Shown piece by piece: positions 36,147-41,046 of a stretch of DNA of 64,000 nucleotides. The DNA is from Escherichia phage adrianh. The stretch is from sequence record MN850614.1; one strand, written 5' to 3'. The notes beneath the pieces were generated by a model that worked only from the letters and a program-made list of their open reading frames with translations, was not told the DNA's origin and ran no database searches. Position numbers and translations under genes: made by a program. The stretch's first letter is position 1, and each line of letters opens with the position of its first letter.

Positions 36147-36223
36147 TCTCTGTTTAGCTCAGCTTGGTAGAGCGTTCCGTTTGGGGCGGTAAGGCCGGAG
36201 GTTCAAGTCCTCCAACAGAGACC
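36147..36223 (+). tRNA. tRNA-Pro (anticodon UGG)
   Basis: Acceptor CTCTGTT/AACAGAG, T-arm GGAGGTTCAAGTCCTCC, loop TTTGGGG, encoded CCA. Confidence 0.7.
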
Positions 36224-36230
36224 AAATTAA

Positions 36231-36308
36231 TGTTCCAGTAGACAAAATGGTAAAGTCACCACTCTTTCAAAGTGGATATCTGAGGGTTCAAATCCCTTCT
36301 GGAACGCC
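36231..36308 (+). tRNA. tRNA-Glu (anticodon UUC)
   Basis: Acceptor GTTCCAG/CTGGAAC, anticodon arm CCACT CTTTCAA AGTGG, T-loop GGTTCAAATCC. Confidence 0.7.
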
Positions 36309-36400
36309 AGTTTTGACAGAAGACCAATTACAGCAAACTTAATCTTATTCATCTGAAGGTAAATCGGACAAAGAAGAGATTTGGTCTGGTCATTAAGAAT

Positions 36401-36477
36401 TGCGGGTATAGAGAAAGGGCGTCTCACATGTCTCATTAGCATGGTATCGGCAGGTTCGACTCCTGCACCCGCCTCCA
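36401..36477 (+). tRNA. tRNA with CAU anticodon (Met or Ile2), atypical
   Basis: Anticodon arm CATGT CTCATTA GCATG, T-arm GCAGGTTCGACTCCTGC; 1:72 mismatch and A at position 8. Confidence 0.45.
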
Positions 36478-36560
36478 AATTTACAGAAGACCGTTTACAG
36501 CAACATTTATTAAATTTTTAGCGGAAAAATTGAAAGATACGGTCTGGTAATACTAAACAT

Positions 36561-36637
36561 GGTTAGGAAGCACATAAGGTATGTGCGGTCGCCTGTTAAG
36601 CGAATGGCACAGGGTTCGAATCCCTGACTAACCGCCA
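36561..36637 (+). tRNA. tRNA-Asn (anticodon GUU)
   Basis: Acceptor GGTTAGG/ACTAACC, anticodon loop CTGTTAA, T-arm CAGGGTTCGAATCCCTG, CCA. Confidence 0.55.
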
Positions 36638-36705
36638 AATTTAGGAGAGAAGCGATTACTCACCGATTTGTAAGGTGCAAGTCCTTAGCCTGAATAGAAA
36701 TTAAA

Positions 36706-36793
36706 TGTGTCGTTATCCCGTAGATGGTAGCGGTGGGGACTGTAAATCCCTTGTCATTGAGACTCGGTAGGTTCGACTCCTACACGGCACACC
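36706..36793 (+). tRNA. tRNA-Tyr (anticodon GUA), long variable arm
   Basis: Acceptor GTGTCGT/ACGGCAC, anticodon arm GGGGA CTGTAAA TCCCT, about 15 nt variable arm, T-arm GTAGGTTCGACTCCTAC. Confidence 0.65.
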
Positions 36794-36798
36794 AATAA

Positions 36799-36876
36799 AG
36801 GTTATGTAGTTTAATTTGGTTAAAATACTCCCCTGTCACGGGAGATGATGAGGGTTCAAATCCCTTCGTAACCGCC
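36799..36876 (+). tRNA. tRNA-Asp (anticodon GUC)
   Basis: Acceptor GGTTATG/CGTAACC, anticodon arm CTCCC CTGTCAC GGGAG, T-loop GGTTCAAATCC. Confidence 0.65.
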
Positions 36877-36901
36877 AATTTTGAGAGGGCTATTTAGCCC
36901 C

Positions 36902-36935
36902 TCCCTTAAAGGGTTCTTACGAGTATCCTTTAAAG
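36902..36935 (+). other. Conserved-loop hairpin (loop TTCTTACGAG), copy 1
   Basis: TTAAAGGG-TTCTTACGAGTA-TCCTTTAA directly after tRNA-Asp. Confidence 0.5.
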
Positions 36936-37304
36936 GAGCAGAAGACCAAATACAGCAAGTTACTTAAAATTTCAAGCCAATTTAATTTTGAAAAATTTAA
37001 AACTTGGTCTGGCTCAACAAATTTACAGAAGACCGTTTACAGCAAAACTTAAACAATCTATTTCTCGGTAAAGAAAAGGCGAAGGTTCGATTCCTTCACT
37101 CGGCAGATGTCGAGTTGGTGTAATGGTAGCACTTAAGATGATAAACAACGGTCTGGTAATTATCTTTGTAGATAAGTTATTAAGCTTACCTGTGAGTATG
37201 CGACCACAAAGGGTGAAAGGGTAAATTCTAGATTTAAACCCAAAAAGGCACATCGCTACAGACCTTAAGCAAGTCTGGGTAGCTTATCTACAAAGATAAT
37301 TTAA

Positions 37305-37380
37305 TGGAAGTGTAGCAGAATGGTGATGCGGCAGACTTTTAATCTGACAGGCGATGGGTTCGAATCCCTCCACTTCTACC
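37305..37380 (+). tRNA. tRNA-Lys (anticodon UUU)
   Basis: Acceptor GGAAGTG/CACTTCT, anticodon loop CTTTTAA, T-loop GGTTCGAATCC; short T-stem. Confidence 0.55.
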
Positions 37381-37384
37381 AATA

Positions 37385-37461
37385 TGGTTCAGTCGCAGAT
37401 AAGGTAATGCAAGGGTCTCATAAGCCCTATGAATGTGGGTTCGAATCCCATCTGAACCTCC
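37385..37461 (+). tRNA. tRNA-Met (anticodon CAU; GGG/CCC in anticodon stem)
   Basis: Acceptor GGTTCAG/CTGAACC, anticodon arm AGGGT CTCATAA GCCCT, T-arm GTGGGTTCGAATCCCAT. Confidence 0.6.
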
Positions 37462-39686: not shown

Positions 39687-39694
39687 AGATTTAA

Positions 39695-39770
39695 AGGGGA
39701 TTAGTTTACAAGGTTAAAACCTCGGTCTTTGAAATCGAAGAAGTTGGTTCAATTCCAACATCCCCCGCCA
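39695..39770 (+). tRNA. tRNA-Gln (anticodon UUG)
   Basis: Acceptor AGGGGAT/ATCCCCC with 1:72 mismatch, anticodon arm TCGGT CTTTGAA ATCGA, T-arm GTTGGTTCAATTCCAAC. Confidence 0.6.
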
Positions 39771-39772
39771 AT

Positions 39773-39851
39773 GCTCCATTACTCCAATTGGCAGAGAGGC
39801 CAGACTTAAAATCTGTGTTATGTATCGGTTCGAATCCGATATGGAGTACCA
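39773..39851 (+). tRNA. tRNA with UAA anticodon (Leu by anticodon)
   Basis: Acceptor GCTCCAT/ATGGAGT, anticodon loop CTTAAAA, 7 nt variable region, T-arm ATCGGTTCGAATCCGAT. Confidence 0.5.
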
Positions 39852-39856
39852 AATTT

Positions 39857-39932
39857 AGCGGTATAGCATAACTGGCAATGCAGCAGTCTCTGAAGCTGTC
39901 TTATTAAGGTTCAAATCCTTATGCCGCTGCCA
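39857..39932 (+). tRNA. tRNA-Gln (anticodon CUG)
   Basis: Acceptor AGCGGTA/TGCCGCT, anticodon arm GCAGT CTCTGAA GCTGT, T-arm TAAGGTTCAAATCCTTA. Confidence 0.55.
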
Positions 39933-39962
39933 CTTCTAAGGATTCTTACGAGAGTCCTTAAA
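39933..39962 (+). other. Conserved-loop hairpin (loop TTCTTACGAG), copy 3
   Basis: TAAGGA-TTCTTACGAGAG-TCCTTA; same loop as copy 1 with a different stem. Confidence 0.5.
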
Positions 39963-39963
39963 T

Positions 39964-40039
39964 GTGGCCTTATCATAAATGGTAATGACCCATGCTGTGA
40001 ACATGGTCTATACGGGTTCAAATCCCGTAGGTCACCCCA
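39964..40039 (+). tRNA. tRNA-His (anticodon GUG)
   Basis: Acceptor GTGGCCT/AGGTCAC, discriminator C, anticodon arm CCATG CTGTGAA CATGG, T-loop GGTTCAAATCC. Confidence 0.65.
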
Positions 40040-40045
40040 ATTTAT

Positions 40046-40121
40046 AGTCCAAGTAGCTTATATGGTTAAAGCGCGTGTCTGAAAAACATGAGAAGAGGGT
40101 TCAAATCCCACTGGACTACCA
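40046..40121 (+). tRNA. tRNA-Phe (anticodon GAA)
   Basis: Anticodon arm CGTGT CTGAAAA ACATG, D-arm GCTT..AAGC, T-loop GGTTCAAATCC; acceptor register ambiguous. Confidence 0.5.
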
Positions 40122-40137
40122 ATTTCAAAGGTGCTTA

Positions 40138-40872
40138 ATGAAAGAGATGACAGAACAAGGTAAGGAGATTTTTAATCTCTTAAAAACTGGTAAAGGGTTT
40201 TCTAACCCCCTTATTACTGGTGCAGCAGTTCTCGGTGGAACCGTAGCTGCCTCTACATCACTTGTAAACTCTATTAGCTCTGTATCAGACCCTACAGTAA
40301 AAGATAAGCTTGTTGCTGCTGGACTTACAACAGTTCTGCTTAACAGCTTTACCACGAGTCTGACAAGCACTACATCAACTACCAAAACACTGACAGATTA
40401 CGGTCAAAAGTCCATTGATGAGTTTTCATCACGTATGCAGGTAGCAAAAGGTTATTCTAATGTTATGGGTGCAGCAGGTGAACAAGTTGGTTGTACACCA
40501 TTTAGTGGTATTATGGGTGTTGCTACAGAGTATGGTCAAAAAGCTATTGACACGATTAACAGTGCACTAGATGGTGTTAATGATGTATTAAGTAACTTAC
40601 AAGATGCTATTGACAAAGGTCTTGATACTATTTCTGATTTAGCTAACCAAGCTGTTAGTAAGATTAATGAAGGCATTTCGAAGATTACAGCTTATGCAGA
40701 TGAAGTTGTGCAGATGATTGAAGAAGAAGCTGCCCTTATTGCAGAGTACCTTAAAACGAATATCAATGGGTTCTTAGCGGGTATCTTACCAGACTGGTTT
40801 GATGATGCTTGTAAAACTGGTGTAATTGATACTATTGCAACACCAGAAATGAAGAATGCATTACAGAAATAA
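40138..40872 (+). CDS. Hypothetical protein (Ser/Thr-rich, helical)
   Basis: Track ORF 40075..40872 starts at GTG inside tRNA-Phe; ATG 40138 with AAAGG RBS is more plausible. Confidence 0.5.
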   Translation: MKEMTEQGKEIFNLLKTGKGFSNPLITGAAVLGGTVAASTSLVNSISSVSDPTVKDKLVAAGLTTVLLNSFTTSLTSTTSTTKTLTDYGQKSIDEFSSRMQVAKGYSNVMGAAGEQVGCTPFSGIMGVATEYGQKAIDTINSALDGVNDVLSNLQDAIDKGLDTISDLANQAVSKINEGISKITAYADEVVQMIEEEAALIAEYLKTNINGFLAGILPDWFDDACKTGVIDTIATPEMKNALQK

Positions 40873-40966
40873 TGGAAGATTAACCCTAAAAGGTAAGGGA
40901 GCAGTTTGCTAAACTGCCAGTAGCTGAGAAATCGGTGTACCAGTTCAAGTCTGGTATCTTCCTCCA
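40873..40966 (+). tRNA. tRNA-Ser (anticodon GCU), long variable arm
   Basis: Acceptor GGAAGAT/ATCTTCC perfect, anticodon arm GCAGT TTGCTAA ACTGC, long variable arm, T-arm ACCAGTTCAAGTCTGGT. Confidence 0.7.
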
Positions 40967-40970
40967 ACTT

Positions 40971-41046
40971 GAATCCGTGACAGAAATGGTTATGTGCCTG
41001 TCTGCAAAACAGGTTTATAAGGGTTCGAGTCCCTTCGGATTCTCCA
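40971..41046 (+). tRNA. tRNA-Cys (anticodon GCA)
   Basis: Acceptor GAATCCG/CGGATTC perfect, anticodon arm CCTGT CTGCAAA ACAGG, T-arm AAGGGTTCGAGTCCCTT. Confidence 0.7.

What the first reader, a model, noticed from the sequence alone, without database searches (positions are those of the whole stretch)
36147..41046. Array of about 26 tRNA genes covering all 20 amino acids
Hand-folded cloverleafs give anticodons for Pro, Glu, Met (two CAU), Asn, Tyr, Asp, Lys (UUU, CUU), Ile, Arg, Trp, Ser (UGA, GCU), Leu (UAG, CAA, UAA), Ala, Gly, Thr, Val, Gln (UUG, CUG), His, Phe and Cys. Most carry an encoded CCA. A full set on an AT-rich phage suggests extensive codon-usage compensation or a way to keep translating when host tRNAs are attacked by anticodon nucleases or other tRNA-targeting defences.
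Basis: partly seen in the sequence, partly recalled or inferred. Interest (0 to 1): 0.6.

Follow-up and report, generated by a model that had tools for sequence, protein, structure and literature searches.

The report
Known phage tRNA array hiding Y-like RNAs
This is the well-known tRNA gene cluster of a Felix O1-like phage (24 sound tRNA genes, not a full set of 20 amino acids), but its unannotated spacers hold four small RNAs that look like partners of the Ro60-like protein encoded just upstream, a pairing that recurs in many unrelated phages.

Summary
The window is a Felixounavirus (96-98% identical to Felix O1, Mushroom, ST11, Bas63). Its tRNA array has been published since 2010, so the finding itself is already known.

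23 of the 24 encode CCA. They cover 18 amino acids.

- The "Arg" element has a UCU loop but no D arm, and it carries G3:U70 plus A73. Relatives hold a canonical tRNA-Arg(UCU) in the same slot.
- The "Trp" element is conserved and covaries but is non-canonical.

Codon compensation is partly supported. A-ending codons read by the U34 tRNAs are enriched. AGA, the most mismatched codon, has no sound tRNA here.

New here:
- The gene upstream (DUF2828) models as a Ro60 fold.
- Four spacer RNAs share a covarying terminal stem plus UUACAGCAA. One has a YrlA-like T arm, closed-acceptor hairpin and D-arm core.
- A model built from that unit finds matching RNAs beside DUF2828 genes in Mycobacterium, Bacillus and Sinorhizobium phages.
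- In 75 metagenomic loci, 103 units lie on the gene's strand, 27 on the opposite strand, and about 20 are expected by chance.
- A tmRNA-like tag module (ANDNVFLAVA) also sits in the array.

The parts
34566..35981 (+). Ro60-like protein gene (471 aa; Pfam DUF2828 + DUF7788), immediately upstream of the array
   Evidence: Pfam hits. PHROG 850 'RNA-binding protein'. AF2 model with pLDDT 88 and pTM 0.88. The top 11 Foldseek PDB hits are all Ro60/TROVE chains aligned at full length, probability 1.0, TM 0.5-0.66. The Bas63 orthologue gp130 is reported as Ro60-like and as a counter to the Ppl defence (PMC11482910).
36001..36121 (+). Two sigma-70-like promoters (TTGACA-17-TAATAT and TTGACA-18-TAAAGT) ahead of the first tRNA
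   Evidence: Consensus scan. Direct repeat D17. Consensus match only; not tested for function.
36148..36309 (+). tRNA-Pro(UGG) 36148-36224 and tRNA-Glu(UUC) 36232-36309
   Evidence: ARAGORN. Rfam 57.7 and 60.4 bits.
36314..36392 (+). Y-like unit 1: outer stem UGAC/GUCA, AGA/G internal loop, inner stem AGACCAA/UUGGUCU, motif UUACAGCAA
   Evidence: Repeat family D7. Fold. Stem table. Model R1 hit at 39.8 bits, E 5e-7.
36401..36477 (+). tRNA with anticodon CAU (first copy): weak, with a U1xC72 mismatch and U at position 37
   Evidence: ARAGORN. No Rfam tRNA hit even at E<=10. Cove score 28.9 in Felix O1. Fold.
36481..36550 (+). Y-like unit 2: stems UUAC/GUAA and AGACCGU/ACGGUCU, motif UUACAGCAA
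   Evidence: Model R1 hit at 49.3 bits, E 3e-9.
36561..36877 (+). tRNA-Asn(GUU) 36561-36637, tRNA-Tyr(GUA) 36707-36794, tRNA-Asp(GUC) 36800-36877
   Evidence: ARAGORN. Rfam 48.0 bits for Asn and 65.2 bits for Asp; Tyr is matched only by the tRNA-Sec model at 29.6 bits.
36936..37015 (+). Y-like unit 3: stems GAGC/GCUC and AGACCAA/UUGGUCU, motif AUACAGCAA
37023..37159 (+). Y-like unit 4 (long form): the same basal stem and motif enclosing a V hairpin, T arm GAAGG-UUCGAUU-CCUUC, a closed acceptor-like hairpin and D arm GUGU-AAUGGUA-GCAC
   Evidence: Fold. Covariation on alignment A5: 96.9% of cells paired against <=53% in slid controls; the acceptor-like helix has 3 pairs changed on both sides. 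The element order matches the YrlA core consensus. Model R1 cross-hits in other phage families.
37162..37297 (+). 136-nt structured element closed by a perfect 15-bp stem; Felixounavirus-specific
   Evidence: Arms verified and MFE -43.6 kcal/mol. Not conserved in Mooglevirus or Suspvirus. Function unknown.
37306..37539 (+). tRNA-Lys(UUU) 37306-37381, tRNA CAU (second copy) 37386-37462, tRNA-Ile(GAU) 37465-37539
   Evidence: ARAGORN. Rfam 54.4, 56.4 and 63.4 bits.
37555..37583 (+). Best sigma-70-like promoter of the region (TTGACA-17-TATACT)
   Evidence: Matches 11 of 12 positions. Conserved in relatives (alignment A4).
37590..37786 (+). tmRNA-like mRNA module; the tag frame 37633-37668 reads ANDNVFLAVA**, followed by a helix, a pseudoknot-like element and a hairpin
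   Evidence: Translation. Rfam tmRNA 16.3 bits and tmRNA_permuted 29.4 bits, both below the gathering score of 47. ARAGORN gives the same tag in Mordin. Only silent changes in the tag, and 3 compensatory pairs in the following helix. Related copies in E. coli prophages and plasmids.
37788..37869 (+).
   Evidence: Relatives carry a canonical tRNA-Arg(UCU) in this slot, and the two forms are mutually exclusive.
38013..38095 (+).
   Evidence: The anticodon stem shows 4 double compensatory changes between Felixounavirus and Mooglevirus.
38109..38198 (+). tRNA-Ser(UGA); the only gene without an encoded CCA
   Evidence: ARAGORN. Rfam 33.2 bits. 3' end checked.
38455..39110 (+). tRNA-Leu(UAG), Lys(CUU), Ala(UGC), Gly(UCC), Thr(UGU), Val(UAC), Leu(CAA)
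   Evidence: ARAGORN. Rfam 43.6-59.6 bits.
39129..39686 (+). ORF inside the array (185 aa, DUF7338)
   Evidence: Pfam E 4.5e-61. PHROG 2143.
39695..40121 (+). tRNA-Gln(UUG), Leu(UAA), Gln(CUG), His(GUG), Phe(GAA)
   Evidence: ARAGORN. Rfam 45-58.7 bits.
40075..40872 (+). ORF inside the array (DUF7217; annotated as a putative membrane protein in relatives)
   Evidence: Pfam E 4.8e-89. Annotations in relatives.
40874..41046 (+). tRNA-Ser(GCU) 40874-40966 and tRNA-Cys(GCA) 40971-41046
   Evidence: ARAGORN. Rfam 46.2 and 58.8 bits.
41209..41234 (+). Intrinsic-terminator-like hairpin with a T run after the last tRNA
   Evidence: Consensus scan. Fold.

Best explanation
The region is the tRNA gene array of a Felix O1-like virulent myovirus.

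It holds 24 canonical tRNA genes for 18 amino acids, all on one strand. They are probably transcribed from host-type promoters at about 36.0, 36.1 and 37.56 kb, and released by host tRNA-processing enzymes.

The array mainly tops up the host pool for the A-ending codons that this 39%-GC phage prefers.

It is also part of a larger RNA module. A Ro60-like protein gene sits directly upstream. Between the tRNAs lie four Y-RNA-like genes (three short, one with a tRNA-like core), a tmRNA-like tag module, and two non-canonical tRNA-like genes with UCU and CCA loops.

Shown here: the tRNA genes, the family identity, the Ro60 fold, the RNA structures with their covariation, and the genetic linkage across phages.

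Inferred, not shown: transcription and processing, binding of the Ro-like protein to the stem-plus-ACAGCAA RNAs, and any role in RNA quality control or counter-defence.
For: - **Family identity.** 354 phage records match, and 237 cover at least 80% of the array at 80-99% identity, including Felix O1. Annotated arrays in Bas63, Felix O1, Sf19, Mordin and mistaenkt are collinear with the window.
- **tRNA genes.**
- **Codon match.**, in agreement with PMC3185647.
- **Ro60 fold.**; noted independently for Bas63 gp130.
- **Y-like units in the window.** Four copies of the motif against 0.54 expected. Terminal stems covary among paralogues and orthologues across 95 units, 54 of them distinct. Unit 4 covariation is.
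- **Y-like units elsewhere.** Model R1, built only from Ounavirinae unit 4 sequences, gives full-length hits next to DUF2828 genes or inside tRNA arrays: Krypton555 (E 1.6e-5, overlapping an Rfam YrlA partial hit), Bacillus phage Skywalker (E 7e-11) and Sinorhizobium phage phiM7 (E 6.5e-7 and 1.2e-5).
- **Strand-specific linkage.** Nine annotated distant loci hold 28 same-strand units and 1 opposite-strand unit. In 75 metagenomic loci there are 103 same-strand units, 27 opposite-strand units and 20.4 expected; 47 of 75 loci have a same-strand unit within 700 nt of the gene, against 9 of 75 on the opposite strand; 87 tRNAs lie on the gene's strand and none on the other.
Against:
- The count of promoter-like sites is not above chance (14 found, 15.3 expected).
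- Rfam's YrlA model does not hit any of the four units, and the YrlA 5' motif GNCGAA(N)G is absent.
- Unit 3 was not recovered by model R1.
- Binding of the Ro-like protein to these RNAs is inferred from gene linkage only.
- The codon-usage test uses a host table recalled from memory and is only modestly significant (p = 0.035).
- The Bas63 tRNAs were mostly non-essential on laboratory hosts.
Confidence: 0.8

Rival explanations
1. One reading: the array is a complete, self-sufficient decoder set for all 20 amino acids. Its main purpose would be to keep translation going when host tRNAs are destroyed by anticodon nucleases or other tRNA-targeting defences.
For: - The G34 tRNAs (Asn, Asp, Tyr, His) and Lys(UUU) show no codon-usage rationale. 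From general knowledge, they belong to the classes attacked by known anticodon nucleases.
- Bas63 tRNAs are dispensable on laboratory strains and are described as a conditional toolbox, with references to work on evasion of tRNA-targeting defences.
- The neighbouring Ro-like gene counters a defence system in Bas63.
Against: - Only 18 amino acids have sound genes; Arg and Trp do not.
- The window also lacks the tRNA-Arg(ACG) that Felix O1, Sf19, Mordin and mistaenkt carry.
- Nine or ten tRNAs fit plain codon compensation.
- No nuclease-resistance feature was tested here.
Confidence: 0.3
2. The two rejected elements are working decoders. The set would then be functionally complete: 38013-95 would be a divergent tRNA-Trp(CCA) and 37788-869 an unusual tRNA reading AGA.
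For: - **Trp-like element.** It has loop CUCCAAA, G73, A1-U72 in most relatives and an encoded CCA. Its anticodon stem keeps pairing through 4 double changes. ARAGORN's mitochondrial model calls it Trp(cca).
- **Arg-like element.** Its UCU loop occupies the same slot as the canonical tRNA-Arg(UCU) of relatives. AGA is the codon most in need of a tRNA. Its acceptor strands are complementary to each other yet differ from both neighbouring variants.
Against: - Both elements fail ARAGORN at default thresholds, in the window and in relatives.
- The Arg-like element has no D arm, so it lacks the A20 identity element.
- The Arg-like element carries G3:U70 with A73, the alanine identity set from general knowledge. 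It would more likely be charged with Ala.
- The Trp-like element has a 25-nt D region, a C31xA39 mismatch and, in this window, a U-U mismatch in the T stem.
Confidence: 0.3
3. The four repeated spacer units are not Y-like RNAs. They would be processing or spacer signals of the polycistronic tRNA precursor, or repeats left by recombination or homing endonucleases.
For: - They sit exactly between tRNA genes and begin 4-9 nt after a CCA.
- HNH endonuclease genes come and go in this array among relatives.
- The Rfam YrlA model gives no hit.
Against: - The same stem-plus-CAGCAA design occurs next to DUF2828 genes in phages that have no tRNA in the flank, and also in the 5' leader of the gene itself.
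- The units are strand-specific and 5-fold above the shuffled expectation.
- The long form has a conserved tRNA-like core with covariation, and it is found across four bacterial phyla's phages.
Confidence: 0.12
4. The tag module 37590-37786 together with the tRNA-like gene 37788-37869 forms a working phage tmRNA that tags or rescues stalled ribosomes.
For: - The tag ANDNVFLAVA** starts at a GCA resume codon, and its upstream sequence matches the tmRNA consensus.
- Only silent changes occur in the tag, and the next helix covaries.
- The adjacent element has no D stem and carries G3:U70, A73, a T arm and CCA.
- ARAGORN calls a permuted tmRNA in Mordin. Published notes report the same for Moogle and Felix O1.
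Against: - The topology is wrong. The acceptor 5' strand lies after the tag module, so RNase P would separate the two parts.
- Both Rfam tmRNA scores are far below the gathering score.
- ARAGORN finds no tmRNA in the window.
- Many relatives keep the tag module but replace the tRNA-like gene with an ordinary tRNA-Arg.
- The prophage copies have no CCA end.
Confidence: 0.15

Closest known systems
tRNA gene cluster of Salmonella phage Felix O1 and other Ounavirinae (Whichard et al. 2010, PMC3185647)
   Same: Same locus, same gene order and same anticodons at 96-98% nucleotide identity, with the DUF2828 gene upstream and the terminase gene downstream.
   Different: This window is a compact version without the three HNH endonuclease genes of Felix O1, and without tRNA-Arg(ACG).
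Bacterial Ro60 (Rsr) with YrlA/YrlB Y RNAs (Chen et al. 2014, PMC4201824); phage examples include Thermus phage phiLo Ro60 with Yrl1/2 (PMC12135203)
   Same: A ring-plus-vWA Ro60 fold. Several small RNAs are encoded within 4 kb on the same strand. One RNA carries a tRNA-like core in the order V, T arm, closed acceptor hairpin, D arm, and the others are short stem-bulge-stem RNAs.
   Different: The protein belongs to Pfam DUF2828/DUF7788, not TROVE. The RNAs do not match Rfam YrlA. They carry UUACAGCAA after the 5' stem strand instead of GNCGAA(N)G. They are embedded in a tRNA array.
tmRNA (ssrA), one-piece and permuted two-piece forms
   Same: A tag reading frame that resembles the proteobacterial tag. 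It is followed by a helix and a pseudoknot-like element, and next to it lies a D-stem-less tRNA-like domain with G3:U70 and CCA.
   Different: The order of the parts matches neither known form. Scores are below threshold. The tRNA-like domain is replaced by a normal tRNA in many relatives.
Dictyostelium Class I RNAs (Rfam RF01414; Kjellin et al. 2021, PMC7919456)
   Same: A short terminal stem, a conserved single-stranded motif (CC)UUACAGCAA directly after the 5' stem strand, a variable interior, and a 3' end of stem-CUG(U). The phage consensus from 104 units has the same design.
   Different: Rfam scores are only 13-20 bits against a gathering score of 41.5. The organisms are unrelated. No shared protein partner has been shown, and I could not test whether Dictyostelium has a DUF2828 protein.
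tRNA arrays of other large virulent phages (T4, T5, KVP40, Listeria P100-like phages, Bacillus Tsamsavirus)
   Same: Same-strand clusters of tRNAs with short spacers and interspersed small ORFs. In several of these phages a DUF2828 gene lies inside or beside the array.
   Different: The gene content and order are lineage-specific.

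Membership tests
Canonical bacterial-type tRNA genes (the 24 ARAGORN calls) | Cloverleaf accepted by a tRNA predictor, with a 7-nt anticodon loop | tested here: met
   24 ARAGORN calls. 22 of them reach the Rfam tRNA gathering score. Met 36401-36477 and Tyr 36707-36794 are accepted by ARAGORN only.
Canonical tRNA - the 'Arg' element 37788-37869 | D arm and standard cloverleaf accepted by predictors | tested here: not met
   Only 7 nt lie between the acceptor and anticodon stems, and the variable region is 23 nt. ARAGORN rejects it down to 80% of its thresholds. 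Rfam scores it 31.7 bits, just above the gathering score of 29.
Canonical tRNA - the 'Trp' element 38013-38095 | Standard cloverleaf accepted by predictors | tested here: not met
   Never called by ARAGORN in six genomes. Its best Rfam score is 21.3 bits, against the tRNA-Sec model. It is accepted only by the mitochondrial model.
Ro60 / TROVE proteins | HEAT-repeat ring followed by a vWA domain (the fold) | tested here: met
   AF2 model with pLDDT 88. The top 11 PDB matches are Ro60/TROVE chains aligned over about 520-575 columns.
Ro60 / TROVE proteins | Sequence membership in the Pfam TROVE family | tested here: not met
   Pfam gives DUF2828 and DUF7788 only. phmmer against PDB sequences finds no Ro60.
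Ro60 / TROVE proteins | Binds Y RNA or misfolded RNA | not testable with these tools
   Supported by genetic linkage only.
YrlA-type Y RNA | Encoded within about 4 kb of the Ro60 gene on the same strand | tested here: met
   Units lie at 36314-37159, 0.3-1.2 kb downstream of the gene and on the same strand.
YrlA-type Y RNA | tRNA-like core in the order V, T arm, closed acceptor-like hairpin, D arm, inside a closing stem | tested here: met
   Unit 4. The order matches the YrlA core consensus shown.
YrlA-type Y RNA | Matches the Rfam RF02553 covariance model | tested here: not met
   No hit at E<=10 in searches of 421 nt and 166 nt. Only a partial hit below the gathering score (38.3 against 69 bits) in Krypton555.
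YrlA-type Y RNA | 5' motif GNCGAA(N)G, the presumed Ro contact | tested here: not met
   The 5' strand reads (Y)ACAGAAGACC, and the conserved motif is UUACAGCAA.
tmRNA | Tag reading frame with an alanine resume codon and a stop | tested here: met
   37633-37668 reads ANDNVFLAVA**. It aligns to the tmRNA resume region.
tmRNA | Alanine-accepting tRNA-like domain (G3:U70, A73, CCA, T arm, no D stem) | tested here: inconclusive
   These features are present in 37788-37869. However, the element also has an anticodon-like hairpin, and in many relatives it is replaced by tRNA-Arg. Charging was not tested.
tmRNA | Standard or permuted topology, and a model score above threshold | tested here: not met
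   Rfam scores of 16.3 and 29.4 bits against a gathering score of 47. ARAGORN finds no tmRNA in the window. The acceptor 5' strand lies after the tag module.
Dictyostelium Class I RNA | Matches the Rfam RF01414 model at its gathering score (41.5 bits) | tested here: not met
   19.7, 15.3 and 13.0 bits for units 1, 3 and 4.
Dictyostelium Class I RNA | Terminal stem, an 11-nt motif next to the 5' strand, and a CUGU 3' end | tested here: inconclusive
   9 of the 11 motif positions are shared, and the phage consensus has the same layout. This could be convergence or chance.

The most novel reading that the evidence does not exclude
The four spacer RNAs, and their counterparts in other phages, would form an undescribed phage-wide family of Y-like RNAs: a terminal stem, then (U)UACAGCAA, with or without a tRNA-like core. 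They would be the RNA ligands of the DUF2828 branch of Ro60-like proteins.

Dictyostelium Class I RNAs have the same stem-UUACAGCAA-variable-stem-CUGU design. They would be the eukaryotic branch of the same ribonucleoprotein.

I put the phage-only half of this statement (a real, conserved RNA family genetically tied to DUF2828 genes) at about 0.6. The probability given below is for the whole statement, including the cross-kingdom link.
Probability: 0.1. Interest if true: 0.85.

Novelty: new variant of a known kind. Interest (0 to 1): 0.4.

Why it matters
The tRNA array itself adds nothing new. It has been in GenBank and in the literature for Felix O1-like phages since 2003-2010.

What matters is the context. 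A Ro60-like protein that counters a bacterial defence system in a close relative sits at the head of the array, and its likely RNA partners are hidden in spacers that current annotations leave blank or fill with doubtful small ORFs.

The same gene-plus-RNA pairing recurs in phages of Proteobacteria, Firmicutes and Actinobacteria. About 700 phage records in the searched collection encode the protein, often inside tRNA arrays and near RNA-repair genes.

If the pairing is confirmed, it gives three things:
- a testable handle on what phage Ro-like proteins do;
- a reason to stop counting every tRNA-like fold in a phage array as a decoder;
- a defined RNA motif for binding and structural work.

Tried and rejected
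- **Rfam YrlA on the units.** No hit at E<=10 in two small-region searches, so I do not file the units as YrlA members.
- **Motif in IMG/VR.** Scanning for AGAAGACCNNWTACAGCAA gave single matches outside Ounavirinae-sized contigs. These lack the closing strand and are chance matches.
- **Is the tag module a copy of host ssrA?** No. It matches only 339 of 5426 E. coli genomes, in prophages and plasmids, and not at ssrA.
- **ARAGORN 'permuted tmRNA' in Mordin.** The call spans 750 nt and three tRNA genes. It borrows the T arm of unit 4, so I treat it as an artefact built around a real tag-like sequence.
- **R1 hits on adjacent tRNA pairs** (for example window 38448-38579 and L065 324-406). These are dimeric-tRNA artefacts, as Chen et al. 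warned.
- **Sequence search of PDB with the protein.** It found nothing; only the fold search did.
- **afdb50 fold search.** I wanted it to see which eukaryotes carry the protein, but the library was not available.
- **Supplementary tables of Chen et al. 2014.** Not held in the library.
- **Promoter and terminator counts.** They do not exceed the shuffled expectation, so individual sites are only suggestions.

Full report
**1. What the window is**

The 5.2 kb around the finding matches 354 phage records. 237 of them cover at least 80% of it, at 80-99% identity. The best matches are Felixounavirus genomes (LF82P1, ST11, Mushroom, VpaE1, Felix O1, Bas63) at 96-98%. GC content is about 39%.

In annotated relatives the same order holds: DUF2828 gene, tRNA array, two conserved ORFs, terminase. 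Blast shows the window is collinear with them, apart from insertions and deletions.

The Felix O1 paper reports 22 tRNAs in three groups plus one (PMC3185647). The wV8, Moogle and Mushroom papers report 21-23. The array as such is therefore already known.

**2. Checking the observation**

Rfam's tRNA model passes 22 of them. The first CAU tRNA (36401-36477) and tRNA-Tyr are accepted by ARAGORN only. That fits their low or 'pseudo' scores in Felix O1. 23 of the 24 encode CCA. The 24 genes cover 18 amino acids.

- It has a clean 7-bp acceptor stem, a 5-bp stem with loop CUUCUAA, a T arm and CCA.
- Only 7 nt stand where the D arm should be, and the variable region is 23 nt.
- Rfam gives 31.7 bits.
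- ARAGORN rejects it until the threshold is cut to 70%, and then folds it differently as Ala(cgc).
- Its acceptor stem has G3:U70 with A73, which from general knowledge is the alanine identity set.
- Bas63, Sf19, Mordin and mistaenkt have a textbook tRNA-Arg(UCU) in this slot.
- Across 30 Ounavirinae loci the two forms exclude each other. Some genomes add a 125-nt tRNA-like element.

- It has loop CUCCAAA, G73 and CCA.
- It is present in nearly all relatives.
- Its anticodon stem keeps pairing through four double changes between Felixounavirus and Mooglevirus.
- Its D region is 25 nt long and irregular, and positions 31-39 are C and A.
- This window has a G-to-U change that breaks a T-stem pair.
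- ARAGORN never calls it in six genomes. Only the mitochondrial model gives Trp(cca).

It is a conserved RNA and possibly a divergent tRNA-Trp. The window also lacks the tRNA-Arg(ACG) of Felix O1 and others.

**3. Codon usage**

I compared 55 ORFs (43.7 kb) of the window with an E. coli K-12 table recalled from memory. Codons that exactly match a phage tRNA are enriched relative to the host (mean log2 ratio +0.34, against -0.45 for other codons; p = 0.035).

- The effect is carried by tRNAs for GCA, CUA, UUA, CCA, UCA, ACA, GUA, CAA and AAG.
- The G34 tRNAs show none.
- AGA is 43% of phage Arg codons against 4% in the host, the largest gap, yet it has no sound tRNA here.

This agrees with the published view for Felix O1. 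In Bas63 the tRNAs were mostly dispensable on four laboratory strains (PMC11482910).

**4. The gene upstream**

ORF 34566-35981 hits Pfam DUF2828 and DUF7788 and PHROG 850 'RNA-binding protein'. An AlphaFold model built from 44 homologues has pLDDT 88. Its 11 best PDB matches are all Ro60 proteins aligned at full length, including Xenopus Ro, Deinococcus Rsr and Thermus phage phiLo Ro60.

The PhageMaP preprint noted the same for Bas63 gp130. It showed that gp130 counters the Ppl defence, and it guessed that some annotated tRNAs might be Y RNAs. Homologues occur in 709 phage records.

**5. The spacers: four Y-like RNAs**

A 19-nt motif, AGAAGACCNNWTACAGCAA, occurs four times in the window and only in the array, against 0.54 expected. 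Each copy is closed downstream by the complementary strand, and all four fold alike. The fold is a 4-bp outer stem, an AGA/G internal loop, a 7-bp inner stem, then single-stranded UUACAGCAA.

Across 95 units from Ounavirinae contigs, 54 of them distinct:
- the outer stem reads UGAC/GUCA, UUAC/GUAA, UUGC/GCAA or GAGC/GCUC;
- the inner stem ends in AA/UU or GU/AC;
- the strands are nearly always complementary.

Unit 4 (37023-37159) also encloses a hairpin, a T arm (GAAGG-UUCGAUU-CCUUC), an abutting hairpin in the place of the acceptor stem, UG, and a D arm (GUGU-AAUGGUA-GCAC). The acceptor-like hairpin has three unrelated sequences in different genera, and all of them pair. On a 10-sequence alignment, 96.9% of cells pair against at most 53% in slid controls, and three pairs change on both sides.

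This is the order of the YrlA core (PMC4201824; consensus). Rfam's YrlA model does not hit the units, and the YrlA 5' motif is absent. So the units work like YrlA/YrlB but are not members of that family.

**6. The pairing is general**

A covariance model built only from Ounavirinae unit 4 sequences (R1) gives full-length hits in:
- Mycobacterium phage Krypton555, directly after its DUF2828 gene (33.6 bits, E 1.6e-5), overlapping a partial Rfam YrlA hit;
- Bacillus phage Skywalker, between tRNA-Glu and tRNA-Ile of a 21-tRNA array that ends at a DUF2828 gene (54 bits, E 7e-11);
- Sinorhizobium phage phiM7, twice.

All carry ACAGCAA after the 5' stem strand.

By eye and with a simple detector, tandem short units flank the gene on its own strand in phages of Listeria, Aeromonas, Campylobacter, Staphylococcus, Enterococcus and Vibrio. 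The detector looks for a stem of at least 6 bp, then 2-3 nt, then CAGCAA, then the closing strand within 175 nt. It finds 28 same-strand units against 1 on the opposite strand. In Vibrio phage phi-pp2 the unit encloses the ribosome-binding site and start codon of the gene itself.

In 75 metagenomic viral loci with 38-47% identical homologues, the counts are:
- 103 same-strand units, 27 opposite-strand units, and 20.4 expected from shuffles;
- 47 loci with a same-strand unit within 700 nt of the gene, against 9 for the opposite strand;
- 87 tRNAs on the gene's strand and none on the other.

The consensus of 104 distinct units is A-AG-stem, (U)UA-CAGCAA, a G-poor interior, stem, then G-U/A. The median length is 69 nt, and 29 units are longer than 110 nt.

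I found no paper in the library that describes this RNA or links it to DUF2828.

**7. The tmRNA-like module**

After a strong promoter-like site (37555-37583), the sequence reads AAAAUAAAU GCA AAC GAC AAU GUU UUU CUG GCA GUA GCU UGA UAG. This encodes ANDNVFLAVA**. From memory, the E. coli tag is ANDENYALAA.

- Rfam's tmRNA models align this stretch, but below threshold.
- ARAGORN reports the same tag in Mordin. Genome notes mention an ARAGORN 'ssrA' in Moogle and Felix O1 without analysis.
- Among relatives, the only changes in the tag are GAC/GAU and UGA/UAA. The next helix has three compensatory pairs.
- A related module with the tag ANEEMYLAVA lies between the Q antiterminator and the holin gene of a lambdoid prophage, and on many plasmids, in 339 of 5426 E. 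coli genomes. It is not at ssrA.
- The element that follows in this window is the D-arm-less 'Arg' gene with G3:U70. However, the part order fits no known tmRNA, and many relatives have a normal tRNA there.

I leave this as a conserved tmRNA-derived element of unknown function.

**8. Verdict**

It is wrong on completeness. The tRNA array is a known feature of a known phage genus.

The added value lies in three results:
- the array belongs to a Ro60-like RNA module;
- four unannotated Y-like RNAs are defined here;
- the same protein-RNA pairing is widespread in phages.

The resemblance of these RNAs to Dictyostelium Class I RNAs is recorded as an untested lead.

Noticed in passing
window 37590-37786 (tag frame 37633-37668): A tmRNA-like module encoding ANDNVFLAVA**. 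It lies after a strong promoter-like site and is followed by a covarying helix and a pseudoknot-like element. It is conserved in all Ounavirinae loci examined, and ARAGORN-based genome notes call it 'ssrA'.
   Followed up: partly
L057 4990-5215 (E. coli WP4-S18-ESBL-08 chromosome, lambdoid prophage, between the Q antiterminator and the holin gene): A related tag module (ANEEMYLAVA*) about 81% identical over 125 nt, followed by a T-arm-like hairpin closed by a 12-bp stem with no CCA. It is present in 339 of 5426 E. coli genomes, mostly on plasmids, and is unannotated.
   Followed up: partly
L001 6455-6547 (Bas63 / JohannRWettstein): The 93-nt Ser-type tRNA (long variable arm) that carries anticodon GCU in the window and other relatives has anticodon UCU in Bas63, where it is annotated as tRNA-Arg. 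A serine-bodied tRNA reading AGA would be worth a look.
   Followed up: no
window 37162-37297: A 136-nt element closed by a perfect 15-bp stem (ATCTTTGTAGATAAG / CTTATCTACAAAGAT), with MFE -43.6 kcal/mol. It is present in Felixounavirus but not in Mooglevirus or Suspvirus. Function unknown.
   Followed up: partly
L004 5922-6047 (Mordin); also Sf19, mistaenkt, L034, L051, L055: A 125-nt tRNA-like element (acceptor GGUCAAG/CUUGACU, G73, CCA, T arm, long interior) follows the canonical tRNA-Arg(UCU) in some genera. The window's D-arm-less element shares sequence with its 3' part. The slot therefore holds three alternative cassettes.
   Followed up: partly
window 36903-36936, 39933-39963, 37750-37782: A repeated hairpin type (UUAAAGGnU - UCUUACGAG - AnUCCUUUAA) between tRNAs and at the end of the tag module. 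These may be processing sites.
   Followed up: no
window 38199-38454 and 38862-38956: The 256-nt Ser-Leu gap holds a terminator-like hairpin (AGACC-UUUUU-GGUCU plus a U run) and a roughly 30-bp imperfect hairpin just before tRNA-Leu. The 95-nt Thr-Val gap folds into one long structure and contains GAAGACCGUAACAAAU, a possible decayed Y-like unit.
   Followed up: no
L059 3463-3508 (Vibrio phage phi-pp2): A single 45-nt stem-plus-UUACAGCAA unit encloses the Shine-Dalgarno sequence and the start codon of the DUF2828 gene. This suggests that the protein regulates its own translation.
   Followed up: no
L061 1929-2480 (Listeria phage LP-064): A ROOL RNA match (87 bits, E 2e-16, just under the gathering score) lies in the tRNA cluster. 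Upstream of the DUF2828 gene are three Y-like units, and an RtcB ligase gene lies 1.3 kb downstream. The layout recalls the bacterial rsr-yrlA-rtcB operon.
   Followed up: no
window units 1, 3, 4; Rfam RF01414: Rfam's Dictyostelium Class I RNA model gives weak hits (13-20 bits) on three of the four units. The phage consensus (AAG-stem-UUACAGCAA-variable-stem-CUG) has the same layout as those amoeba RNAs, whose partner protein is not settled.
   Followed up: partly
L001 2497-2771 (Bas63 CDS bas63_0137 and bas63_0138, minus strand): Two small 'hypothetical protein' ORFs annotated on the opposite strand overlap Y-like units 3-4 and the 136-nt element. They are probably spurious gene calls over structured RNA.
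   Followed up: no
window 36401-36477: The first CAU tRNA has a U1xC72 mismatch at the top of the acceptor stem and U rather than a purine at position 37. It is invisible to the Rfam tRNA model. Whether it is an initiator-like tRNA, an elongator Met or something else is open.
   Followed up: no
L058 449-565 and 1866-1936 (Aeromonas phage LAh_8): Two tRNA matches (49 and 43 bits) are not annotated in the record. The first is 117 nt long and may contain an insertion.
   Followed up: no
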